A stretch of DNA of 64,000 bases from a virus (IMGVR_UViG_2574180019_000006); one strand, 5' to 3'. Shown: positions 31,948 to 44,121, counted from the first letter of the stretch. The notes: a model not told the origin generated them from the sequence alone. Made by a program: numbers and translations.

Positions 31948-33177
31948 ATGATAATTGAACAAATAACCCCTTGCTCGGAGCTTGGAATGACTGATACCGC
32001 TTTTTCAAAATCGTTACAAAAAGAAGTCGATCCTGAGCAGTACTTGGCGCTAAAGAATTTAGATGACAGCTCGGTTCATGCTATTGCCCGTGACGATATC
32101 ATCTGCCCCATTTGCAAAGTTGGAGGTGGTTCGTTCGTTAGAGCCACTAGGAATGGTGGCTATCACAAGAAGGCGCATTTCAGATTTACCGGTGAAGATG
32201 GTCAAGGCCATCATCCATCATGTGATTTCTATGGAGATAGATTAACATCTGAGGTGAAGCAGCACCTTGTCTCATTCACAAAAGATCGAACAAAGTATTC
32301 GCAGGTAATACGAAAGCTGGTCTGTGCCGGCATACAGGAAGGGATATTTACTCAAGAAAAAATGTGGCAGATGAGGGAATGGTTCTTCAATAAGCGAAAG
32401 GATTCCACATTTGAAATATGGTTAGAAAGCGAGCATTTAGACTGGCTTTATTATATTAGTGGGTTACGTGATGCATATCTAGCATGGACAACTCCTGATA
32501 TTCTACCTTTCGCGCCCATTCAGGTTACTGTCCCTGGTTTTTCTTGGAGGCGTGCGATTGACAAAGAGGTGCTAAGAGTTCACATCAAGACTCTCCAGCA
32601 ATTGCGTGAAATTTCAGTCTCACATAGTGACATTGCTGTAATCTTAGAACACATAAACAATAATCGTGACCGCACAATTCTCGATCCATCGCATTTGGAG
32701 GACGAGATAAGTAAGACCTATAAGCTTACTAGTTTTGTGATGGGCAATTACATTGAGTTTCAGACAAAAACGGTTAGCGACAGAGCATACGGGGAAGCTA
32801 AGTTTCTGGCATTTGCAGCACTTTTGTTGTTCGTGTCAGATTGGGACCTCAACATTGCTATTGGTAAGTTTTCTAAGATTGCCAGAGTGAAGGAGGTTGA
32901 TGACATGCTGGCTGGTAATTTCATTGGTCTTAATCCTTACTTCCGATACGACCTGGCTAATGCAGTGAAGAGATTGCAGGATAACTGGCCGATTGAATAC
33001 CAAGAGTTGGAGCATTGGAATGTTGAGAAATCCATGCGTGACGCATATGAAAAGTGGCGTGCGACAGAGCCTGAATTCGCTCCACCCCTATTGCCAGACT
33101 TGTATATTGCCAAACATGAGAAAGAAGTCGCACAAGACGAGCAAGTCAGGCAGTGGATTAAGAACGGGGATGTTTGA
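31948..33177 (+). CDS. hypothetical protein with N-terminal Cys/His zinc-ribbon-like motif (alternative start 31987)
   Basis: 409-aa ORF; CPICK...HHPSCDF cluster; AT-rich upstream region without the phage-type leader; ggag RBS before ATG 31987. Confidence 0.5.
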   Translation: MIIEQITPCSELGMTDTAFSKSLQKEVDPEQYLALKNLDDSSVHAIARDDIICPICKVGGGSFVRATRNGGYHKKAHFRFTGEDGQGHHPSCDFYGDRLTSEVKQHLVSFTKDRTKYSQVIRKLVCAGIQEGIFTQEKMWQMREWFFNKRKDSTFEIWLESEHLDWLYYISGLRDAYLAWTTPDILPFAPIQVTVPGFSWRRAIDKEVLRVHIKTLQQLREISVSHSDIAVILEHINNNRDRTILDPSHLEDEISKTYKLTSFVMGNYIEFQTKTVSDRAYGEAKFLAFAALLLFVSDWDLNIAIGKFSKIARVKEVDDMLAGNFIGLNPYFRYDLANAVKRLQDNWPIEYQELEHWNVEKSMRDAYEKWRATEPEFAPPLLPDLYIAKHEKEVAQDEQVRQWIKNGDV

Positions 33178-33299
33178 GTGTAATTAGCTTAATCAATCAG
33201 TTGATAATGGCGGTCACAATTTGATTCTTTTCTATAAGAATCCGTTGATCGCCACTACTCCCCTTCCATAGCTGCAATCATACCCTTAAATATCAATAG

Positions 33300-34100
33300 G
33301 TTATGGTTGTTTATACAAATAAGAAAACAACTAAATAACAGATCAACGAAACGTCAACGCTTTCACCCGATTTGGTCTAAAAAATTGACGTTTTCACACA
33401 TCACTTCTTATACCCGTAACTCTACGCAGCAGACAGCGCCACAGCGTCCAATTTTCACCACAGACGACCCAACACACTACCAACAAAAACACACGCTCAA
33501 AATCGCTCCCGTTGCGTTACACAACCATATAAACAACTTATTTTCAGGCATAACAAAACAACTAAATAACACACATGCCATTCCCAAAAACAACCAACCT
33601 CTTTATGGCAGGCTACCGAAAAGACCCACCTCTTCTCCCCAGGCTACCGGACAACCAACCTAACTTTCACAGGCAATCCGAAAACATTCATACGCGCAAT
33701 ACCCACGACACGCCATTCCCCAAACAGCGAAGAAACACCAGAATCACTGAAACCCCAACGAAGCCTGTAACCGCAAGGATTCTCTCAATCCCAAAAGACA
33801 CGAAACATAACAATCACGGGAAATACCATTACCCAATACACGAATAACTACAAAAGCCTTTCACACACTCCAGACAAACAACTCAAACACAATAACGAAA
33901 GGAATCGCCCACCTGCCATTACTCCATACACGGAGAAGAACAATCACCAAAACGACGAGAACACCCCATAGAAGAACCACCGCAAAACGAACGAAACCAC
34001 ATACACCGACAGAGAGAACAACACACCCAATTCACCAACAGAAATAGTCGCCGTATAGAACGTTCTGGAAGGAGTGAGCATTAACGCCTATAGAGAGGTT
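33300..34100. other. ORF-free, strongly strand-asymmetric (A+C-rich, G-poor on plus strand) region with internal short repeats
   Basis: No ORF >=60 aa on minus strand; plus-strand ORFs are low-complexity; repeated aaaacaactaaataaca units; composition visibly skewed. Confidence 0.5.
33590..33670. repeat. ~80-bp repeat R, copy 1 (caaccaacctc...caggctaccg...cccacct...ggctaccgg...aactttc)
   Basis: ~75% identical by eye to copy at 37115-37200. Confidence 0.45.
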
Positions 34101-34246
34101 GAGACAGATAAAAACAACATGTATAGCGAAGAAGCCAGGTATGTATAAGTGGGGAGGGAAGGAGGGGTGTCGCCTCCTTTTTCGTATTTATTCAACTCCT
34201 GATTTTATCCCCCCGTAACACCCCTACGGTCAGCCTTCGGTCCATA

Positions 34247-34385
34247 CAGGGAAAAGGTTGCATCCCGCTACAGAAACGGCTGGGTTGCCTTCGGGGAACG
34301 GCTGGGGATTTTCAGGGAAACGGTCGAGTTGCCTGTGTGGATTTCGGGAAAAGGCTCGATGCCGGTTCAGGAACGGCGGCGTACC
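34247..34385. repeat. Iteron-like tandem array 1: six degenerate ~22-bp units with core (C)AGGGAAA(A/C)GG(C/T)TG
   Basis: cagggaaaaggttgcat / cagaaacggctgggttgc / ggggaacggctgggg / cagggaaacggtcgag / cgggaaaaggctcgatg / caggaacggcggcg in direct orientation. Confidence 0.55.
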
Positions 34386-34710
34386 GGTATAGCGAGAGGG
34401 AGAGTTGCGGCTACCCACCTGTAATGTGCGGGAAGAAGAGAGGCGCTCACGTAGGCGGACTTGCTTACCGCTGGATTCCCTCTGAATGCCCAGCTACAGC
34501 GTAATTGTGCCAGACAGCCAACGGGGCACAATCGATTTCAGTAGGTTTTTGGGGAGAGGATTACTCTGCCACCAGCCACTTTCGGCCACTAAATCAGAAT
34601 AATGTAAAAAGTGTACTCGGTACTGAACCTGAAAACTCACTGCCAAAACCACATTCACCGGAATAAAATCCTTTTTCGCCTGTGCGTTATTGCGATAATA
34701 ACACCAACAA

Positions 34711-36035: not shown

Positions 36036-36431
36036 ATGACCGTTAAACGCGAAAAACTGACAGTTGATGTTTACTATGCCTCTGAAACCGCCGAAGGTAA
36101 GAATGTGGCAAAAATTACCGTTGTTACGTACAACACCGAAACTGGTGCCGAAGTCCAGGCCAGTACGATCGTTCGTAAAGGTGATGCCTCCGGCGGCGAG
36201 TACGCGACTCAATACCAGTCCATTCTCGATGCAACTGACCCGCTGCTGCTGAAAATCGAGAACTACTTCCGCCAGGTTGATGAAGAGGTGTTTGAAACCA
36301 TGATGAATATGGTTAACACCGTATTCGCCTCCAGCCTGAATACCAACACTACCTGGATTGGTCAGTACGGCCTGCGCATTACCTCTGGCATTCCTGCCGA
36401 CACCTTAATCCCTGAAAGCGTATTCGCTTAA
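36036..36431 (+). CDS. hypothetical protein (~131 aa)
   Basis: ATG 36036 preceded by acggagag; followed by terminator ggcgcgtaaaccgcgcc-tttt. Confidence 0.45.
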   Translation: MTVKREKLTVDVYYASETAEGKNVAKITVVTYNTETGAEVQASTIVRKGDASGGEYATQYQSILDATDPLLLKIENYFRQVDEEVFETMMNMVNTVFASSLNTNTTWIGQYGLRITSGIPADTLIPESVFA

Positions 36432-36548
36432 TCCTCTTTAAATGGCGCGTAAACCGCGCCATTTTATTAAGCCCGATAACAATTTGTTTTCTGCCTTATC
36501 TGATTTGTGAAAATGATTTCACTGAAGCAACTTAATAAGGAAACCATC

Positions 36549-36923
36549 ATGGGACTTGATATCTATATCGAGACACAGCCTAAAAACGATCTGAATAACG
36601 AGGCATCCAGAAAGCAGGTTGCTTACTTCCGTAAGTTCAATGCGCTCGTTGGGTGGATGGAGCGCAACGTAGGTGAAGTCGAAAATTGTGAGCTTTTAGA
36701 ATTAACGATGAATGACATTTGTTTTCTGAAGGCTCATTTGATGCACATAAACGAAAGTAATTGCGAAGAGTACTTGCCTACCCGGGAAGGTTTTTTCTTC
36801 GGCAGTCAGGAGTACGATGAAGGTTACTGGCATGATGTGGGGCAGTTGAAAGAGCTTGTGGAAGATCTGATTAAGAACCACGACTTTCACAATAACAGAC
36901 TGACCTTCTGCGCCTGGTGGTAA
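36549..36923 (+). CDS. hypothetical protein (~124 aa)
   Basis: ATG 36549 with RBS aaggaaacc; palindrome gataacaatttgttttc at 36475-36491. Confidence 0.45.
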   Translation: MGLDIYIETQPKNDLNNEASRKQVAYFRKFNALVGWMERNVGEVENCELLELTMNDICFLKAHLMHINESNCEEYLPTREGFFFGSQEYDEGYWHDVGQLKELVEDLIKNHDFHNNRLTFCAWW

Positions 36924-36925
36924 AT

Positions 36926-37069
36926 ATGGGCGATTTCAAGAAACGCCTGAAGGAAAGAGCCGAGATGGTCAGAAAGCAAAACGCCTCTTCTGTCATCAGA
37001 TACGCAAGGCAGTTTAGTCGCAACAACAAATCAGTTGAGGAAAAGATCCTTAGCGTAATCGTGCGATAA
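36926..37069 (+). CDS. hypothetical small basic protein (47 aa)
   Basis: Not in ORF track; ATG 3 nt after upstream stop; followed by hairpin aggccatcagcattggtggcct. Confidence 0.3.
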   Translation: MGDFKKRLKERAEMVRKQNASSVIRYARQFSRNNKSVEEKILSVIVR

Positions 37070-37929: not shown

Positions 37930-38360
37930 AACCAGCGGTTGTCGGACAGGTGAGCGGGGAAAATTATGATGACTTTCGTCACCTGAGACATCCAGATTTC
38001 TTTCGTAGCATAATCACATACGTGATTAAGTGGTGTGATTATGTGAAAAATCACGCGCACATAATACGCGAGCGGATACGGAACAAAACAAAATGCCGAT
38101 CCGCGCCGACAAATAAACGCGGATCATAAAGCAAGACTAAAAGCCAATGATTAACTATGCGCTATAACGCGTTTTAAGCGCGTTAATGTGTTAAGTAATG
38201 GGTATGTACTGGCAAGGATATAAAAGCGCGTCTATGGCGTTATTTTGGCGCTTATTTTTATGTTGTTGGAGTGAGTTAAAGACAATAAAAAACGCGCCAT
38301 CAATGGCGCGTTATTGTGGAAGTATTGGAAACGAAAAAAGCGCCCATAGTGGGCGCTCGA
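37930..38360. other. AT-rich non-coding region with multiple GC-cored hairpins (gcgccatcaatggcgc, gcgcccatagtgggcgc, acgcgttttaagcgcgt)
   Basis: No ORF; at least four related palindromes (another copy at ~38838-38855); upstream end of minus-strand gene block. Confidence 0.4.
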
Positions 38361-38362
38361 TT

Positions 38363-38593
38363 TTATTTGTGTAAACTGATTTTAAATCCCATTTCTACGA
38401 ACGCTTTTAACATTAAAAATATATCAGCGTCGTTCACGTCTGCTTTTTTTCGCTCCTGGTCGCTCAATAAGTCAATTTTGCGCGTCGTTTCATCTATAAG
38501 CTCGACTACACGCCCAGCGTAACCAGCGATCCCAGCGATGCGATTAACATAATATTCATTATGGACGTTAACGCCAGCGATAAGAACAAACAT
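38363..38593 (-). CDS. hypothetical protein (76 aa)
   Basis: Minus-strand ORF, last gene of minus-strand block. Confidence 0.4.
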   Translation of the reverse strand: MFVLIAGVNVHNEYYVNRIAGIAGYAGRVVELIDETTRKIDLLSDQERKKADVNDADIFLMLKAFVEMGFKISLHK

Positions 38594-38614
38594 GATTAAG
38601 CTCCTTAAAAAAAA

Positions 38615-38818
38615 TTAAATAGAATTTTGAAGTTTTCCGATTAATGCGCTTAAGCGTAAGTATTCACGTTTGCGCTTGCAATCTCGCTTGCTGTTAAGCA
38701 AATCAGAAAACGTAAAATTTAATTGGTCGCGTTGCGCGATCAAATCGTCGATTAATTCCAGTTTATAAGCGCGATAATTTGCGCGATATTCTGCGCGGAT
38801 CTTGTCATAGCTGACCAT
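38615..38818 (-). CDS. hypothetical protein (~67 aa)
   Basis: Internal ATG at 38818 preceded by aaggag; ORF track extends to 38863 through an upstream hairpin. Confidence 0.4.
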   Translation of the reverse strand: MVSYDKIRAEYRANYRAYKLELIDDLIAQRDQLNFTFSDLLNSKRDCKRKREYLRLSALIGKLQNSI

Positions 38819-38866
38819 CTTTAAAGCTCCTTTAAAGCGCCCATTGTGGGCGCTTGATTCCATTAA

Positions 38867-39526
38867 TTACGCTTTAAAAGCATCAGCTAAATAATTGTAG
38901 AAATCATTCTTGATAAAGCGATATTGCTGTGTACCAGCTTTGGCGCTCCCAGCTCCTTTGACTTTTTCAACAAGTCCGAGACGTTCGCAAAGATTGATCA
39001 ACTGGTTGGCTTGAGTATAGCCAGCGTCCAATTTAATTTCACACGCTTTTTTAGCTTCATTCATTAAATCGAAAACAGCGCCATTGGTGAACGTGTCGAT
39101 CTCGTCGTTAATCATATCGATTAAAGCGAATACACGAGATCCAGACATATCAGCGATGGAATAAATGCATTTACCAGATTTAATTGATTTAACCAGATAA
39201 ACCAGTTTTTCCAGAGAATAACTATTAGTCATTGCATCACGAAAAAATACTTCTGGCGCTTGTTTGCTTGCTTTAATCGCATAGTAGAAAACAGAGCACA
39301 ATTTTTCGTCTTCTACAGCGTTTACAACGTTGTTGATGAAGTAAGCTAGTTTAGTGGTCGCAGCTTGCATATTTGCTTTGTCTGCTTTGGTGTGCGTACC
39401 ATTTTTATAATGTTCGTTATATGTTTGAGTTGCCAGATCTGCTTTTTCGCGCAGCTCGTCGGATACAATAGATGCAGCTTCAATGATGGACTTTTTAGAA
39501 ATGATAATGTTAGCCATGATGGACAT
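38867..39526 (-). CDS. hypothetical protein (~216 aa)
   Basis: Minus-strand ORF; probable start at second ATG (39517) 8 nt after aagg. Confidence 0.5.
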   Translation of the reverse strand: MSIMANIIISKKSIIEAASIVSDELREKADLATQTYNEHYKNGTHTKADKANMQAATTKLAYFINNVVNAVEDEKLCSVFYYAIKASKQAPEVFFRDAMTNSYSLEKLVYLVKSIKSGKCIYSIADMSGSRVFALIDMINDEIDTFTNGAVFDLMNEAKKACEIKLDAGYTQANQLINLCERLGLVEKVKGAGSAKAGTQQYRFIKNDFYNYLADAFKA

Positions 39527-39812
39527 CCTTACGAAAAATTAAAATGAATTTATTTTTTACTGTCGTTAGCTAGCTCGCTTTCGACGAGTTCAATTATCGA
39601 TACGTGAAAAAAGATTGCAAGTATTTTTTTTAAATTTTCTGCAGGGATGAAAGTCCTAGAAATAAAAGCGAGATCGTCGAAGGTGTTCCCTAAATAAATA
39701 ATCAATTCGGGCCTTTAACCTTATATATTTATACGGAGTGGCATCGAAAGAGTTTTAAATGAATGGCATGTAAAATAATAACCGGACTTAGCCGGTTATT
39801 ACCCTTATAGAT

Positions 39813-40337
39813 TTAAAATGGAAGGATTCGTTCAACCCAATCGAAGAAAACAAGTATTTTTCTGCCGTCTTCTAACTTAAGAGTGACCTGGCAAGCATCA
39901 ACGCCTCTTGACACCCCTTCTATTTCACGACCGTCTGTCATGTAGACCCTTATAGATTGGTCGTTTTGATAAGCCTTGCGACATATCGCAAAAAAGTCAC
40001 GGCGTGATGGCTGATTGTCAACATAGTCTGGATGTATTGTTAGCCTACCTTTGAACTCGCGAGCAATGTCATCGATTACACCTGATTCAATTGTGCTAAT
40101 GCGCTCAAGTGGGAGTCTTATACGATTTTCTTTATCATATGGAATCGGGCATAAATCTAGCTTATTGCGTGAAGGCATTGTCCCCTGAACGTACATGCAA
40201 AACACCTGACCGTCTTCAAGCGTGACTCTTACAGGAATGTTGTTCTTCCGCCAGAACATAAGTATGTTCTCAGCATGTTCGTAGTCTCGCGGCCAGACTT
40301 CAGCCGGTATGCCGTAGGTGATGTCCAATGTTCTCAT
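39813..40337 (-). CDS. hypothetical protein (174 aa), AT-rich cassette
   Basis: ATG overlaps stop of upstream gene (ATGA); RBS aagag; internal duplicated beta-rich segments (VRVTLEDGQVF / VTLKLEDGRKI). Confidence 0.5.
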   Translation of the reverse strand: MRTLDITYGIPAEVWPRDYEHAENILMFWRKNNIPVRVTLEDGQVFCMYVQGTMPSRNKLDLCPIPYDKENRIRLPLERISTIESGVIDDIAREFKGRLTIHPDYVDNQPSRRDFFAICRKAYQNDQSIRVYMTDGREIEGVSRGVDACQVTLKLEDGRKILVFFDWVERILPF

Positions 40338-40948
40338 TCTGATACTCTTAGAGGTGTTTTCAGCAATCCAAATTTAAATTCTTTATTACCAACGACCAAG
40401 AAGGGGACTTCAACATAGATTTTTTTATCGACGGATTTAGAGTTCGCTGTTTTCTTGATGTCGCGAACGATACGTTTTGTTGTGTTTTCATCAATAAACA
40501 ATACCTTCCCACTGGTATTCCCTTCAGTCTTAGCATAAGTGACAATAGGTTCTTCATTGCCAACTCTGATGTTCACTTGGCAACCCGTTGTAGCCATTTC
40601 ATCACAATAGAGTGTACCGTCTTGAATTTCTAAAACAATTCCAGATGGCTTCATGGCCTCGTTAGAGCTTACATTAGCGTTTTCTGGTACTGCGGTCCCG
40701 TTAATTTGCAACCGTAATCTTTCTGTTCCTGCATGAAGTATTGTTTCTTCTGCGTTATCTGAGAATCTATACCAGACTGGTTGAATCAGACCTCGTGATT
40801 TGTATTTTAGTACGTCTTCAGAAGTATACATGCTGTACGTTTTTTGCATGTCAGAGACGAAATCTGATAATGCGTTGGCGGAAAACGCCGGGAGGCATAT
40901 ACAAGCAAGGAGTAACGAAAGTTTCATTTTCATATCATGATAATCCAA
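40334..40948 (-). CDS. putative secreted or lipoprotein (~200 aa), AT-rich cassette
   Basis: N-terminal MKMKLSLLLACICLPAFSA signal-like segment (possible lipobox LLAC or SPase I site AFSA); ORF track begins at TTG. Confidence 0.5.
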   Translation of the reverse strand: MDYHDMKMKLSLLLACICLPAFSANALSDFVSDMQKTYSMYTSEDVLKYKSRGLIQPVWYRFSDNAEETILHAGTERLRLQINGTAVPENANVSSNEAMKPSGIVLEIQDGTLYCDEMATTGCQVNIRVGNEEPIVTYAKTEGNTSGKVLFIDENTTKRIVRDIKKTANSKSVDKKIYVEVPFLVVGNKEFKFGLLKTPLRVSE

Positions 40949-41437
40949 TTATTTAACATCACACTTTCTAAGTTTTTCTATTTGTTCTAATTTTTCATGA
41001 TCATCATTTAGATTTCCTTTGACTATCTCCGTTTCAAGTTTGCTGATTAGCATGTTAAGTGCGTTGTAGTTATTGCATTTTACTTTGTAGGCGTAGTATG
41101 ACCTTGTCCCTGGTTTTTGTACACCCATATCATTAAAGTTAGAGCTTAAAGTATAACCTTCAAGTTCAACCCCTTTTATTGTTGGAAGAATTATATTTAA
41201 TGGTTCTAATTTAAATGGGTAGATATAAATATGTGATATGAAGTACTCTTCTGAAGAGATTTTCTTCATGTCTTTTGTGATTGAAACTGAATATTTACGG
41301 TCCCGAGCGATATAAAATTTTGTACATTTGTACGGCTCTAAGTTGAATAGATAATATCTGTCTTTAAAAAGAACATCTTTTCCATGTGATATTTTATGTC
41401 GTAAAGAGTTAATTATTTTGTTTATAGAAATACTCAT
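40949..41437 (-). CDS. hypothetical protein (162 aa), AT-rich cassette
   Basis: Tightly packed with neighbours; Lys/Asn/Ile-rich composition. Confidence 0.5.
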   Translation of the reverse strand: MSISINKIINSLRHKISHGKDVLFKDRYYLFNLEPYKCTKFYIARDRKYSVSITKDMKKISSEEYFISHIYIYPFKLEPLNIILPTIKGVELEGYTLSSNFNDMGVQKPGTRSYYAYKVKCNNYNALNMLISKLETEIVKGNLNDDHEKLEQIEKLRKCDVK

Positions 41438-41582
41438 CTACAGTATCCGACCTTAGTTATCAATTGAAAAGCCTACAAATATCGTTCAGCCAATCAAGAA
41501 ATTTTTTCAGCCGGAGGTATGTACTTCAAAAAATGTGATGAATGTCACATGCAGGTGCTCTCATACACCTGCATGTAGACTA

Positions 41583-42182
41583 TTAATCATTCAATAATCT
41601 ATATTTTCTTTTGATTAAATCTTCACCTTTTTTGGTGAACACAAAACCAAATTGCGATTTTTTGTTCAGCCTAAGGACTCTGTTATCCAACGCATCGGTT
41701 GATGGAATCAATGTTTGATCATCTATCCAATTAAGTAGCGTAAGAAAGTTCAGCAGCCTCAACGTTGTTGTGCGAAGCTCTTTCGATATATTTTCAATGC
41801 TGGCAATTCGTCTTTCTTTTTTCTCAGGTGGTACAGATAATTGTTCTTGAGGTTTCGTGGGTAGATAATCAATTTCGTTTGCTGAATCGAATGATATGTG
41901 TGGCGTAATTTTGCTAAAAAAGCCTTTCGCTGACTCACTTGATAATAAACCAGACCTATTCATATCGTTTGTTATTCTGTACAGGAGTGGACTGTGTTTC
42001 ATTTCAGGATAACGTTGATAAAAGTTAAGCAATTCAAAAGCAGCATTAGCACCAACAAGAAAATCAGAAGGATCGCTGACTTTCCAGAAAGAATGATTTT
42101 TCTTAGCGCCAGTGGTGTCAACAAATGATAATTCTTTTAACCAACTCATGATGTGCTCCTTTCTAACAAGTGAGCACATCAT
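41583..42182 (-). CDS. hypothetical protein (~188 aa from ATG 42149), AT-rich cassette
   Basis: Strong RBS aaggag 6 nt before ATG 42149. Confidence 0.5.
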   Translation of the reverse strand: MMCSLVRKEHIMSWLKELSFVDTTGAKKNHSFWKVSDPSDFLVGANAAFELLNFYQRYPEMKHSPLLYRITNDMNRSGLLSSESAKGFFSKITPHISFDSANEIDYLPTKPQEQLSVPPEKKERRIASIENISKELRTTTLRLLNFLTLLNWIDDQTLIPSTDALDNRVLRLNKKSQFGFVFTKKGEDLIKRKYRLLND

Positions 42183-42214
42183 AGAATTAGTAGATAGGGG
42201 GTAAATATGAAATG

Positions 42215-42493
42215 TTACGGCAACCTGCTCAGTATTTCCTCTAGATCTTTTTTTGTCATATTGGAGTTCTCATAGATGCGCATGATTTTCTCACGCGTCT
42301 TAGCGGAAACCCCAACGGCAGATGTGACTTTGTCAAATTCAGCCATAGTCATCGTCTCCAGAATGGCATTGATAACTTCAGCCTTAGACATCTTGATTTT
42401 TTTCTCTTTGAGTTTTATTTGAAATTTTCCAAGTTTTTCATTGGCCTTATCAGACAATGCCACTTGGCAATAAGTTGTTTTCTTTTCGCTCAT
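42215..42493 (-). CDS. hypothetical protein (92 aa)
   Basis: Starts 2 nt after helicase stop (coupled). Confidence 0.4.
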   Translation of the reverse strand: MSEKKTTYCQVALSDKANEKLGKFQIKLKEKKIKMSKAEVINAILETMTMAEFDKVTSAVGVSAKTREKIMRIYENSNMTKKDLEEILSRLP

Positions 42494-42495
42494 AA

Positions 42496-44055
42496 CTAAT
42501 CTCGTTTCAGAACTCCAAAATCGAATGCGCCATCAACAGGCAATACACCTTCTGCAAAGCCAGGTGTGGTGTCGATGATGTGTTTTCGCTCATAAGAGTG
42601 AGACAACAGGTATTTGTTGCTAATGTCAATGAAATCAGTGATAAAACACACGTTTGCCTGATTCTTCTTGGCTCGTAAGCCACGACCGACACGTTGTCTC
42701 ATTTCAACTTCTGCTTTCCCACCACCAGCAAGAATGACCGCACCAACGCTTGGCACATCAACACCGACATCCAGAATAGTCGAGCCTATTAAAACATCTA
42801 TGTCGCCAGACGCTAAACTGTTCAGCTTTGCTTGCCTTGTCGACTGGTTCGATTCCCCATAAATGAAGTCAACTCTAAGGCCGGACTCTTTCATCATTTC
42901 CATCAGGATTTGCCCGTGGCGTTTAAGACGAACCAGAGTCATACAATTGAGAGAATGTTGCTTATAGAGCAATGCTTCGCGAACAATGGCCTCATTACGT
43001 CCCAAATTATACACGATCCCCAACTGATAAGCCTTTTGGTAGGCAGTGCTCATACCTACTCTAAAATTGAGGTGTTTGTTGGCAAGTTCTGCCTTGATTC
43101 TGGTCTCGTCCGGCTTGTAGGCAACTTTATGATAAAGGAAGTATGGCTTTGCCAGAATGCCTCTATCAATCAGGTACTTTTCCGTGACTTTTATTTCAAT
43201 TCGCCCGGCCACTGCCATCAGACGCATGTTGGCTTCCGTAGAATCCTTCATGAACGGCGTTGCCGTAAGCGCCAGGCGATAGTCTGCGTTCGCACATAAT
43301 CTGGCAATGTCATAGAAATTAGAGCCTGAAGACTCATGCGCCTCTTCCAGAATAAGAAGAGAGACACTTGAAAGGAAGCGTTTCACCAAGTCCCGACGTT
43401 TGAGGTGGTAGCTCTTCTTATCTGGAGTTGCATCGCGTGGTGGTTCTTCAAGGAAACTTGCCAGAGTTTGAACTGTAGCGACGTTGATATGTCGTGATAC
43501 CTGGAACTCACCCGAGCCAATGACTCCAACCTTTTGGTCTTTTAACCACGGTTCGCCATTTTCGGCGCGGTAGTCGATGGATCTCTGGAAGTTTTCGGCC
43601 ATCTGAAACATCAGAACAGAGCGGGTTGTTAAAAATAATGTCATTCGACCGATACGTGCAGCTGCTTTGCAGGCAACATTAGATTTCCCGCCACCAGTAG
43701 CGATCTGCGCAATCATCATTCCCTCTCGAACCAGTGTTTCCACAGTCTGATCCTGATATGCATAATCAGGATTGTATGGGAATGGGTTGACCGCCGGATT
43801 TGGCTTTCCAAGCGCCGGAGCTTTGTCTTTGCGGATATGAACACATTTGATGCCCGCCTTGTTCAAGTTCGCCGCTACAGGCTTGGCAAAGCCAGCAGGG
43901 AACGAGTTTTTACTCCAGTTGAACATCGTGCTTGTGCCCTTCCAGTCGCCAGTCTCGACTTCGTAGCTCAACATCTGTTGCACCAGTTGCTTTACCTTGT
44001 CATCTGCGCCAGAAATAAGTGCATTTACTGCGTTAGATACAATCCGAACAGTCAT
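42496..44055 (-). CDS. Superfamily 2 DNA/RNA helicase (DEAH-like)
   Basis: Motif I ATGGGKS, motif II LEEAHE, motif III TATP, motif VI QRVGRGLR; 519 aa; RBS aaggaaagagg. Confidence 0.75.
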   Translation of the reverse strand: MTVRIVSNAVNALISGADDKVKQLVQQMLSYEVETGDWKGTSTMFNWSKNSFPAGFAKPVAANLNKAGIKCVHIRKDKAPALGKPNPAVNPFPYNPDYAYQDQTVETLVREGMMIAQIATGGGKSNVACKAAARIGRMTLFLTTRSVLMFQMAENFQRSIDYRAENGEPWLKDQKVGVIGSGEFQVSRHINVATVQTLASFLEEPPRDATPDKKSYHLKRRDLVKRFLSSVSLLILEEAHESSGSNFYDIARLCANADYRLALTATPFMKDSTEANMRLMAVAGRIEIKVTEKYLIDRGILAKPYFLYHKVAYKPDETRIKAELANKHLNFRVGMSTAYQKAYQLGIVYNLGRNEAIVREALLYKQHSLNCMTLVRLKRHGQILMEMMKESGLRVDFIYGESNQSTRQAKLNSLASGDIDVLIGSTILDVGVDVPSVGAVILAGGGKAEVEMRQRVGRGLRAKKNQANVCFITDFIDISNKYLLSHSYERKHIIDTTPGFAEGVLPVDGAFDFGVLKRD

Positions 44056-44100: not shown

Positions 44101-44121
44101 ATAAGTAAGTGATTACTTAAT
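44101..44121. promoter_or_regulatory. Palindrome ataagtaagtgattacttaat in divergent promoter region
   Basis: Recurrent palindromic element family between divergently transcribed helicase and ParB-like genes. Confidence 0.35.

What the first reader, a model, noticed from the sequence alone, without database searches (positions are those of the whole stretch)
38363..42493. AT-rich minus-strand cassette of eight unknown genes beside the helicase: candidate accessory or defence module
This cassette is transcribed against the rest of the element. Its core (39813-42182) is visibly more AT-rich with different codon usage, and the genes are tightly packed, including an ATGA overlap. They encode proteins with no motif recognisable by eye, one with a signal peptide or lipobox-like N-terminus. 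The block is bounded by hairpin-rich non-coding DNA (37930-38360) and by the helicase with its divergent promoter. This pattern is typical of horizontally acquired cargo such as superinfection exclusion, anti-phage defence or counter-defence genes. It is the most likely place in the window for a system without an existing name.
Basis: inference. Interest (0 to 1): 0.7.

Follow-up and report, generated by a model that had tools for sequence, protein, structure and literature searches.

The report
Phage-plasmid accessory arm with orphan FljA
This AT-rich, backward-facing gene block is a real but fairly ordinary part of a well-known family of E. coli phage-plasmids: a few genes shared by the whole family (one of them a flagellin-repressor homologue) surround a swap-in slot for fast-evolving cell-envelope and small unknown proteins, and it is not a recognisable new defence system.

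Summary
Eight minus-strand genes at 38363-42493 form the most AT-rich stretch of the window (GC 0.376 against 0.473 elsewhere, z = -5.9). There is an ATGA overlap, a signal-peptide protein and a stack of terminators.

The window is an SSU5/pHCM2-type phage-plasmid, up to 99.9% identical to sequenced E. coli plasmids.

The block is not eight unknown genes, and it is not one acquired module:
- p5 is a full-length FljA-family protein (Pfam PF03614, E = 3e-80).
- p3, p5 and p9 sit in the same order in every locus compared that spans them. p5 is in 831 plasmid records.
- p3 is AT-rich in all of them, so low GC here is old and does not mark recent import.
- The variable part is the slot between p9 and fljA, which ranges from 116 to 2944 bp. 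It almost always holds one exported or lipoprotein gene of several unrelated types.
- In this window the slot holds p6 (Sec-exported, weak IalB-like fold), p7 and p8 (possible winged-helix C-terminus).
- These three genes occur independently, match no defence model and have no enzymatic domain. Their 43-53% identical versions keep the same positions.

Best reading: a lysogenic-conversion and regulatory arm containing a hypervariable envelope-protein slot. It is a new member of a known kind, of modest interest.

The parts
42215..42493 (-). p9: a 92-aa protein that starts 2 nt after the helicase stop. It is a backbone gene present in every relative that spans this position, but it evolves fast (52-100% identity, against 90-100% for the helicase).
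   Evidence: It falls in phrog_1466, of unknown function. It looks like a ribbon-helix-helix protein by eye, but no profile match in PDB or Pfam supports that.
41583..42149 (-). p8: a 188-aa variable-slot gene with an AGGAG ribosome-binding site. The model shows an N-terminal helical domain, a disordered linker and a small C-terminal domain that resembles a winged helix-turn-helix.
41536..41589 (-). A stable hairpin that begins within the last p8 codons and extends downstream of the stop. It may be a terminator or an RNA-processing site that ends the helicase-p9-p8 unit.
   Evidence: -27.3 kcal/mol, z = -5.9, and none of 200 shuffles folds as well.
40949..41437 (-). p7: a 162-aa variable-slot gene and the most AT-rich gene of the block (GC 0.294). 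It has no recognisable family or fold.
   Evidence: Only two protein clusters are known, and it is in 23 plasmid records. A 53% identical copy sits at the same position in Salmonella plasmid CP053410.1. The N-terminus MSISIN is invariant, so the 162-aa model is right and the 106-aa RefSeq call is not. dN/dS is 0.33. No PDB or Pfam match was found.
40334..40933 (-). p6: a Sec-exported protein of about 197-199 aa with a beta-rich mature domain and two invariant cysteines. It is this element's occupant of the slot, and its stop overlaps the fljA start (ATGA).
39813..40337 (-). p5: a 174-aa FljA-family protein ('repressor of phase-1 flagellin'). It is an orphan, with no partner flagellin gene, and a universal backbone gene of the SSU5 supergroup.
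   Evidence: Pfam PF03614 at E = 3e-80, covering positions 1-170 of 170, with sub-threshold Hfq and LSM similarity at residues 123-165. It is in 831 plasmid records, including 341 from Klebsiella and 62 from Yersinia. No flagellin was found in the window or in any SSU5-type record of the phage collection.
39772..39805 (-). An intrinsic-terminator-like hairpin with a U-tract directly after fljA.
   Evidence: One search gives z = -4.1. It is conserved in all relatives, and the most divergent one (L060) keeps it through compensatory stem changes.
39518..39771 (-). A conserved AT-rich regulatory spacer. It holds three near-invariant blocks (about 39719-39733, 39677-39699 and 39650-39666), a sigma-70-type promoter (-35 at about 39620, -10 ending at about 39593) and a leader of about 75 nt with a 5' stem-loop before p3. 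The doubtful TTG ORF 39550-39705 lies inside it.
   Evidence: The promoter-like site is. The alignment of 11 relatives, down to 35% FljA identity, is. The leader hairpin has 2 compensatory pairs out of 7.
38867..39517 (-). p3: a 216-aa universal backbone gene of unknown function. It is AT-rich in every relative (GC 0.37-0.41).
   Evidence: It falls in phrog_1513, of unknown function. dN/dS is 0.04. No PDB or Pfam match was found.
38615..38818 (-). p2: a 67-aa protein, mosaic in distribution (present or absent among relatives).
   Evidence: It falls in phrog_6145, whose 'MIT family metal ion transporter' label is implausible for a 67-aa soluble protein.
38363..38593 (-). p1: a 76-aa protein, mosaic in distribution, with two allelic types (86% identity or more, or 45-51%).
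   Evidence: It falls in phrog_1585, of unknown function.
38054..38358 (-). A stack of terminator-like hairpins that closes the leftward arm where it meets the converging plus-strand genes.
42496..44055 (-). The DEAD/ResIII helicase gene at the head of the leftward arm. It diverges from the ParB genes at 44120 onwards.
   Evidence: Its orthologue carries PF00270, PF04851 and PF00271, and annotated relatives agree.

Best explanation
The block is the distal part of the leftward, helicase-led arm of an SSU5/pHCM2-type phage-plasmid. It is probably made of three transcription units: helicase-p9-p8, then p7-p6-fljA, then p3-p2-p1.

It is a mosaic with two layers.
1. A family-wide backbone: p9, an orphan FljA-family protein (p5), and p3 behind a conserved promoter and leader.
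2. A hypervariable slot between p9 and fljA, inserted into that backbone. The slot nearly always carries one envelope-targeted protein, and it can also carry fast-evolving small cytoplasmic proteins. In this window the envelope protein is p6, a Sec-exported beta-sandwich protein translationally coupled to fljA. The cytoplasmic proteins are p8, with a possible winged-helix DNA-binding C-terminus, and p7.

Inferred mechanism, not shown here:
- While the element is carried as a plasmid, p5 acts like FljA. It binds an mRNA leader and blocks translation. In motile hosts the target would be host fliC.
- The exported slot protein alters or masks an envelope component.
- Together they would remodel the cell surface. 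That is lysogenic conversion, most plausibly excluding other phages or lowering the cost of carriage.
- The genes are independent single-gene modules, not one multi-component system.
For: - Identity of the element.
- Backbone and variable parts: tblastn of all the proteins over 57 loci shows p3, p5, p9, the helicase and ParB in every locus that spans them. p1 and p2 are mosaic. The p9-p5 gap takes sizes of 116, 385, about 505, 665, about 774, 1020, 1881, about 1932 and 2944 bp.
- Slot content: four unrelated types of exported or lipoprotein gene occur, on either strand.
- FljA family membership. The family's post-transcriptional mode of action on fliC mRNA is described in PMC2652032.
- p6 is exported: conserved signal peptide and two invariant cysteines, and an envelope-type beta-sandwich fold.
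- The p6/fljA ATGA overlap is also present in L058, and a similar start/stop overlap in L059.
- All three variable genes are under purifying selection, with dN/dS 0.12-0.33.
- Versions of p8, p7 and p6 at 43-53% identity keep the same order in Salmonella plasmid CP053410.1, while the helicase is 91% identical. This is what host-interaction genes typically look like.
- Transcription units: hairpins after p8, p5 and p1, and a conserved promoter before p3.
Against: - No function of any gene was tested.
- FljA-like genes are just as conserved in elements from Klebsiella (341 records) and Yersinia (62; the sampled ones are Y. pestis). From general knowledge these hosts make no flagella, so host flagellin cannot be the only target, and may not be the main one.
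- Promoter-like matches in the block are no more frequent than chance (18 found, 16.6 expected), so the three-unit model rests mainly on the hairpins.
- p7 occurs only together with p6 and p8, so some functional link among them is not excluded.
Confidence: 0.5

Rival explanations
1. Self-regulation module. The FljA homologue, p9 and p8 control the phage-plasmid's own genes and do not act on the host. p5 would be an RNA-binding translational repressor of an element-encoded mRNA, for example the conserved leader of the adjacent p3 operon. p9 and p8 would be DNA-binding regulators of the helicase arm, affecting copy number or the lysis-lysogeny decision.
For: - p5 is universally conserved, including in elements of Klebsiella and Yersinia (non-motile hosts by general knowledge), and it has no partner flagellin gene.
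- A near-invariant spacer, promoter and structured leader lie directly downstream of fljA.
- The C-terminal domain of p8 resembles small MerR/Xis-type DNA-binding domains.
- The block sits beside replication and partition genes.
Against: - No sequence in the window resembles the fliC leader (best match a 12-mer, E about 0.4). This is a weak test, because the operator may be structural.
- The RHH reading of p9 has no profile support.
- Regulators of core functions are not usually dispensable, yet p8 is absent from about 78% of related plasmids.
Confidence: 0.25
2. Counter-defence or host-takeover genes. p7 and p8, and possibly p1 and p2, are small, fast-evolving cytoplasmic inhibitors of host immunity or host processes. 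They would help the element establish itself in new hosts.
For: - They are small and narrowly distributed, they lack domains, and they keep their position while diverging much faster than their neighbours.
- Their identities are bimodal, at 90% or more or below 60%.
- They are optional within the family.
Against: - There is no similarity to any known anti-defence protein or fold.
- They lie in an arm next to plasmid-maintenance genes and not in a clearly early-lytic region.
- No experimental data exist.
Confidence: 0.15
3. One reading: p6, p7 and p8 together form a new multi-gene anti-phage defence system.
For: - The trio is kept in the same order in two deeply diverged versions, the E. coli type and Salmonella CP053410.1.
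- p7 is found only with both partners.
- One relative carries an HNH protein in the same slot that weakly matches type IV restriction models (E about 2e-5). The slot can therefore hold defence-like cargo.
Against: - No PADLOC hit was found for any of the nine ORFs.
- There is no nuclease, ATPase, kinase, TIR or other effector or sensor domain.
- p6 occurs alone (the 774-bp class). p8 occurs with unrelated lipoproteins (the Cyrano class) or with p6 only (L059).
- Prevalence differs eight-fold: 179, 65 and 23 records.
- A stable hairpin separates p8 from p7 and p6.
Confidence: 0.1

Closest known systems
FljA of the Salmonella fljBA operon, and the plasmid-borne fljA-z66 of S. Typhi pBSSB1
   Same: p5 matches the whole family model (PF03614, 268 bits) and has a similar length. 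fljA-z66 shows that such genes travel on extrachromosomal elements and block fliC mRNA translation (PMC2652032 and PMC1876496).
   Different: Characterised fljA genes lie downstream of a flagellin gene and serve to switch flagellar antigen. Here there is no flagellin gene anywhere in the element type. The upstream gene is a Sec-exported protein or lipoprotein. The gene is also conserved in elements from Klebsiella and Yersinia, which by general knowledge are non-motile hosts.
Phage morons, such as lambda bor and lom and HK97 gene 15, as defined in PMC3594210
   Same: The slot genes are extra DNA between conserved neighbours. They are absent from close relatives, differ in GC and are partly bracketed by hairpins. 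Several encode envelope proteins or lipoproteins.
   Different: The slot is a persistent, multi-allelic locus. Its occupants have diverged in place to 27-53% identity and are not recent imports. Their own promoters are not demonstrated.
Superinfection-exclusion lipoproteins of siphophages (T5 Llp; Cor of phi80 and N15), from general knowledge
   Same: These are a single small envelope-targeted protein, encoded by a (pro)phage and variable between relatives. The alternative occupants of the slot have clear lipoboxes.
   Different: There is no sequence or family match. p6 has a signal-peptidase I site, not a lipobox. No receptor is known and no exclusion phenotype has been tested.
The syntenic region of the type phage SSU5 (SSU5_119 to SSU5_124)
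   Same: The order is the same: helicase, a 92-aa gene, the slot, the FljA-like 'transcriptional repressor', a 216-aa gene and a 67-aa gene.
   Different: SSU5 has a single 140-aa lipoprotein of backbone-like GC (about 0.50) in the slot. It lacks p6, p7, p8 and p1.
Bartonella IalB (PDB 3dtd)
   Different: Identity is 12%, there is no Pfam IalB match, the model is of moderate confidence, and the function of IalB is itself undefined.

Membership tests
FljA / Flag1_repress (PF03614), tested on p5 | A full-length match to the family profile above the curated threshold | tested here: met
   268.4 bits against a cutoff of 24, E = 3e-80, covering profile positions 1-170 of 170. It also matches phrog_1444, 'transcriptional repressor', at 4e-98.
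FljA / Flag1_repress (PF03614), tested on p5 | Operon linkage to an alternative flagellin gene of the fljB type | tested here: not met
   No flagellin was found in the window by tblastn (best E = 0.14). None of the SSU5-type records in the phage collection was among the 11 records that hit a FliC N-domain query. The upstream gene is an exported non-flagellin protein.
FljA / Flag1_repress (PF03614), tested on p5 | Binds the fliC mRNA leader and blocks its translation | not testable with these tools
   This needs a motility assay, a FliC western blot and RNA-binding assays. The mechanism for family members is cited from PMC2652032.
FljA / Flag1_repress (PF03614), tested on p5 | Occurs in hosts that have a flagellin target | tested here: inconclusive
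   It is present in elements of E. coli, Salmonella and Enterobacter, but equally in 341 Klebsiella and 62 Yersinia records. That these hosts are non-motile is general knowledge and was not tested here.
Moron (definition in PMC3594210) | Extra DNA between conserved genes that is absent from close relatives | tested here: met
   This is met for p6, p7, p8, p1 and p2. It is not met for p3, p5 and p9, which are universal.
Moron (definition in PMC3594210) | [quoted passage not shown] | tested here: inconclusive
   GC is clearly lower (0.29-0.39 against 0.47). However, the low GC persists in versions only 43-53% identical, and the universal gene p3 shares it. It therefore does not imply recent transfer.
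Moron (definition in PMC3594210) | Its own promoter and terminator | tested here: inconclusive
   Stable hairpins follow p8 and p5. Promoter-like sites are at chance frequency (18 found, 16.6 expected). p6 is translationally coupled to fljA and so is not autonomous.
Moron (definition in PMC3594210) | Expressed from the repressed prophage or plasmid state | not testable with these tools
   This needs RNA-seq of a lysogen.
Known anti-phage defence systems (PADLOC-DB v2) | At least one component matches a defence-protein model | tested here: not met
   There were 0 meaningful hits for the nine ORFs. The only hit was p8 against SspC at E = 0.032 and 9.9 bits, which is noise.
Known anti-phage defence systems (PADLOC-DB v2) | The components co-occur as an obligate set | tested here: not met
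   p6 occurs alone, p8 occurs with other lipoproteins, and p8 occurs with p6 but without p7. The families are in 179, 65 and 23 records respectively.
Superinfection-exclusion lipoproteins (Llp / Cor type) | A lipoprotein signal peptide with a conserved lipobox cysteine | tested here: not met
   For p6 the cysteine in the signal peptide is not conserved, and a conserved A-N-A cleavage site is present instead. The alternative slot occupants in relatives do have lipoboxes.
Superinfection-exclusion lipoproteins (Llp / Cor type) | Blocks adsorption or DNA entry of a phage that uses a defined receptor | not testable with these tools
   This needs plating and adsorption assays.
IalB family, tested on p6 | Sequence membership (the Pfam IalB profile) and a shared fold | tested here: inconclusive
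Ribbon-helix-helix regulators, tested on p9 | A profile match to RHH families or to solved RHH structures | tested here: not met
   The family profile found no RHH chain in the PDB. None of 7 diverse members hit an RHH Pfam family. The resemblance rests on inspection by eye only.

The most novel reading that the evidence does not exclude
The orphan FljA homologue found in every SSU5-supergroup phage-plasmid may be an RNA-binding translational repressor that the element has taken over for its own use. It could silence host flagella as a carriage or exclusion strategy. Alternatively, because it is equally conserved in Klebsiella and Yersinia hosts (non-motile by general knowledge), it could control an element-encoded mRNA through the conserved leader next to it. 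The adjacent hypervariable slot (p6, p7, p8) would then be an arms-race locus of new single-gene exclusion or counter-defence factors.
Probability: 0.15. Interest if true: 0.6.

Novelty: new member of a known kind. Interest (0 to 1): 0.3.

Why it matters
SSU5/pHCM2-type phage-plasmids are common in clinical E. coli, Shigella, Salmonella Typhi, Klebsiella and Yersinia pestis (pMT1), and they are usually described as 'cryptic'.

This locus is the clearest candidate for what they do to their hosts. It holds a universally conserved flagellin-repressor homologue next to a multi-allelic slot for envelope proteins. If p5 really switches off flagella, or if the slot proteins mask phage receptors, carriage of these elements would change motility, H-antigen expression, immune recognition and phage susceptibility. 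That would matter for serotyping and for phage therapy.

As a search for an unnamed defence system, the locus is weak. The sequences are already in databases and annotated as hypothetical. No enzymatic or sensor domains are present. The architecture is that of a familiar hypervariable moron region.

Tried and rejected
- PADLOC, NCBIfam and Pfam scans of all nine ORFs found only FljA.
- PDB sequence and profile searches for p3, p5, p6, p7, p8 and p9 found nothing credible. The p9 hits were designed helical repeats.
- Pfam scans of divergent family members of p8, p9, p3 and p7 gave only inconsistent noise.
- An Rfam scan of the whole window had no hit at the gathering thresholds.
- The AFDB50 fold library was unavailable.
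- A search for a fliC-leader-like operator in the window gave only chance-level 9- to 12-mers.
- pBSSB1 (AM419040) is not in the local collections, so p5 could not be aligned directly with fljA-z66.
- The TTG ORF 39550-39705 was rejected as a gene. It has no PHROG family, it is only patchily conserved as protein, and it overlaps conserved promoter and operator-like DNA.
- The lipoprotein reading of p6 was rejected.
- The reading 'AT-rich means recently acquired' was rejected.
- Literature searches found nothing linking SSU5-type elements to FljA, flagella or motility.

Full report
**What the window is.** The region 36.5-46.5 kb is 96-97% identical to Escherichia phages CMS-2020a, Cyrano and PhiR41_1, and about 81% identical to Salmonella phage SSU5. 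The cassette itself is 99-99.9% identical to several E. coli plasmids of about 110 kb, such as NZ_CP070135. Parts of it match 764 plasmid records from Klebsiella, Escherichia, Enterobacter, Yersinia and Salmonella. The element is therefore an SSU5/pHCM2-type phage-plasmid. Annotated relatives describe this stretch as hypothetical proteins plus a 'transcriptional regulator / repressor of phase-1 flagellin', a DEAD-box helicase and two ParB genes.

**Checking the observation.**
- The ORF list shows eight credible minus-strand genes between 38363 and 42493, plus a doubtful TTG ORF.
- The block has GC 0.376, against 0.473 +/- 0.017 for equal-sized windows elsewhere. That is z = -5.9 and the lowest value in the window. 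p7 reaches GC 0.294.
The flank 38363-39813 has the same GC (0.376), and the fljA-like gene inside the 'core' is the least AT-rich gene (0.442).
- The ATGA overlap between p6 and p5, the 2-nt junction between the helicase and p9, and an AGGAG ribosome-binding site that fixes the p8 start at 42149 are all visible in the sequence.
- The 'hairpin-rich' DNA downstream of p1 is a stack of terminator-like hairpins (14 sites against 5.9 +/- 2.6 expected). It includes two tandem canonical terminators (z = -5.4).

**What the genes are.**
- p5 is a full-length member of the FljA family (Pfam Flag1_repress, E = 3e-80, profile positions 1-170 of 170). It also has sub-threshold Hfq and LSM similarity in its C-terminal half.
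- All other proteins fall only in PHROG families of unknown function (one, p2, carries an implausible transporter label). p1, p2, p3, p5 and p9 fall in low-numbered families, and p6, p7 and p8 in high-numbered ones.
- Nothing matches PADLOC defence models or NCBIfam. Rfam finds nothing in the window.

**Backbone and variable parts.** I fetched 50 viral and 4 genomic loci anchored on the FljA homologue and mapped every cassette protein onto them.
- p3, p5, p9, the helicase and ParB are present, in the same order, in every locus that spans them.
- p1 and p2 come and go.
- The interval between p9 and p5 takes discrete sizes: 116 bp (empty), 385 or about 505 bp, 665, about 774, 1020, 1881 (this window), about 1932 and 2944 bp.
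- Reading these intervals shows a slot that nearly always holds one envelope-targeted gene. The types are a 140-152-aa lipoprotein (SSU5 type, same strand), a 145-aa lipoprotein (Klebsiella type, opposite strand), a 259-266-aa lipoprotein (Cyrano type, opposite strand), or p6.
- p8, p7 or a 377-aa HNH protein are added in some relatives. The HNH protein weakly matches PADLOC HNH and type IV restriction models (E about 2e-5).
- Some relatives also carry an extra signal-peptide ORF between fljA and its terminator.

**The three variable genes.**
- p8 is close to an ORFan. A search of 5.8 billion proteins finds only E. coli sequences at 78% identity or more. An exhaustive HMMER scan of 1.8 billion representatives adds just a 43% and a 27% relative.
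- Both of those relatives sit in exactly the same place, after the helicase and its small downstream (p9-position) gene and before the slot gene and fljA, in more diverged SSU5-supergroup contigs.
- p7 has only two clusters. p6 has about 20 clusters down to 48% identity, all on contigs of about 110 kb from Enterobacteriaceae.
- Salmonella plasmid CP053410.1 carries the whole array helicase-p9-p8-p7-p6-FljA-p3-p2. There p8 is 43%, p7 53%, p6 50% and p9 59% identical, while the helicase is 91% and p3 83% identical.
- Against a second diverged copy (L058), dN/dS is 0.12 for p6, 0.33 for p7 and 0.12 for p8. All three are therefore real genes under purifying selection. dS varies from 0.10 to 1.6 between neighbouring genes, which shows recombinational mosaicism.
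- Among plasmid records, the FljA homologue is in 831, the p8 family in 179, the p6 family in 65 and p7 in 23. For p8 and p6 identities are bimodal, at 90% or more or below 60%; p7 has a single diverged copy.
- These are long-resident, fast-evolving, independently assorting genes of this locus. They are not a freshly imported unit.

**Composition.** The universal gene p3 (GC 0.37-0.41) and the p5-p3 spacer (0.30-0.40) are AT-rich in every relative, whatever the backbone GC. The p6-p8 type of slot content stays at 0.345-0.39 even in the diverged versions. The SSU5-type lipoprotein slot has backbone-like GC of about 0.50. Low GC is a stable property of these genes and not a mark of recent transfer.

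**Structure-based clues.**
- p6 has a conserved Sec signal peptide that ends in FSANA|LSD. The cysteine that suggested a lipobox is not conserved, and two cysteines in the mature part are invariant.
- The p8 model has pLDDT 72.5. It shows a helical N-terminal domain, a disordered linker and a small C-terminal domain.
- Profile searches for p3, p7 and p9 against PDB and Pfam gave nothing. My impression that p9 is a ribbon-helix-helix protein is therefore unsupported.

**Transcription and regulation.**
- Stable hairpins follow p8 (z = -5.9) and p5 (z = -4.1, with a U-tract).
- An alignment of the p5-p3 spacer from 11 relatives, down to 35% FljA identity, shows several conserved features:
  - the fljA terminator, kept through compensatory changes in the most divergent relative;
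  - three near-invariant blocks;
  - a sigma-70-type promoter (CTTG...N17...CGATAAT, also found);
  - a leader of about 75 nt.
- The 5' stem-loop of that leader has two compensatory pairs.
- I therefore infer three units: helicase-p9-p8, then p7-p6-fljA, then p3-p2-p1. Promoter-like matches overall are no more frequent than chance, so this remains an inference.

**How it probably works.**
- FljA-family proteins block translation of fliC mRNA, and they do travel on plasmids (pBSSB1; PMC2652032 and PMC1876496).
- In this element the homologue is an orphan. No flagellin gene exists in the window or in any SSU5-type record of the phage collection.
- It is just as conserved in elements from Klebsiella and Yersinia, hosts that by general knowledge are non-motile.
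- Its target may therefore be host fliC in motile hosts, or an mRNA of the element itself. No fliC-leader-like sequence is present in the window, though this is a weak test.
- The slot protein, translationally coupled to fljA, goes to the envelope.
- Best-supported reading (confidence about 0.5): this is a lysogenic-conversion and regulatory arm with a hypervariable envelope-protein slot. It most plausibly remodels the cell surface to exclude other phages or to reduce the cost of carriage.
- Rivals:
  - a self-regulation module (0.25);
  - counter-defence genes (0.15);
  - a true three-gene defence system (0.10), which is disfavoured by independent assortment, the absence of effector domains and the absence of PADLOC hits.

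**Novelty and interest.**
- The DNA is already in public databases at 99.9% identity.
- The class, a hypervariable moron-like slot as defined in PMC3594210, and the FljA family are both known.
- I found no paper that discusses this locus, or FljA, in SSU5-type elements.
- The universal orphan FljA, including in Klebsiella and Yersinia hosts, is a small and testable puzzle.
- I rate this a new member of a known kind, with interest 0.3.

Noticed in passing
window 33200-34500: About 1.3 kb with no convincing ORF and extreme strand asymmetry. The plus strand has only 7-16% G per 100 nt at 33400-34000 and is A+C-rich. The stretch lies directly downstream of a 409-aa ORF (31948-33177). Only one 16-nt repeat of 2.2 copies was found, and there is no Rfam hit. 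It may be an origin or a non-coding RNA region.
   Followed up: partly
window 39813-40337 (p5, residues 123-165): The FljA-family protein gives sub-threshold Pfam matches to Hfq (E = 5.7e-4) and LSM. FljA may therefore be built from Sm/Hfq-like RNA-binding modules, which would fit its post-transcriptional mode of action.
   Followed up: no
window 39518-39812; aligned with L002, L015, L026, L032, L042, L057-L060 and L064: The AT-rich fljA-p3 spacer is strongly conserved non-coding DNA. It holds a terminator kept through compensatory changes, three near-invariant blocks (TAAATATATAAGG, ATTTATTTAGGSAACACCTTC and TTTATTTCTAAGACTTT), a conserved promoter and a leader with a 5' hairpin that has 2 compensatory pairs. 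It is a candidate operator or RNA target.
   Followed up: partly
L015 and L026, between the fljA stop and its terminator: Klebsiella-type relatives carry an extra cysteine-rich ORF of about 100 aa with a signal peptide (MKALLLSTILFASSATVSA...), inserted just downstream of fljA. This is a second insertion point for exported-protein genes.
   Followed up: no
L013, within the p9-fljA slot (slot coordinates 776-1909): One relative carries a 377-aa HNH-domain protein in the slot (Pfam HNH at 3e-6; PADLOC HNH and type IV methyl-directed restriction models at about 2e-5). The slot can therefore hold nuclease-type, defence-like cargo.
   Followed up: partly
window 40949-41437, compared with NZ_CP070135 (L003 5585-5905): RefSeq annotates p7 as only 106 aa. 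The full 162-aa ORF is intact, and its N-terminus MSISIN is invariant in a 53% identical homologue, so the database gene model is probably truncated.
   Followed up: yes
window 38363-44055, compared with L058: Synonymous divergence between the same two elements ranges from 0.10 (fljA) to 1.6 (helicase) across adjacent genes. The arm is a patchwork made by frequent recombination among SSU5-type lineages.
   Followed up: partly
L003 757-1215, compared with window about 36430-36930: The nearly identical plasmid NZ_CP070135 has an IS200C transposase gene where this window, like phage Cyrano, has a 136-aa ORF (36513-36923). This is a local difference just outside the cassette.
   Followed up: no
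window 38615-38818 (p2): The PHROG and GenBank label 'MIT family metal ion transporter' for this 67-aa, apparently soluble and coiled-coil-like protein looks like a propagated mis-annotation.
   Followed up: no
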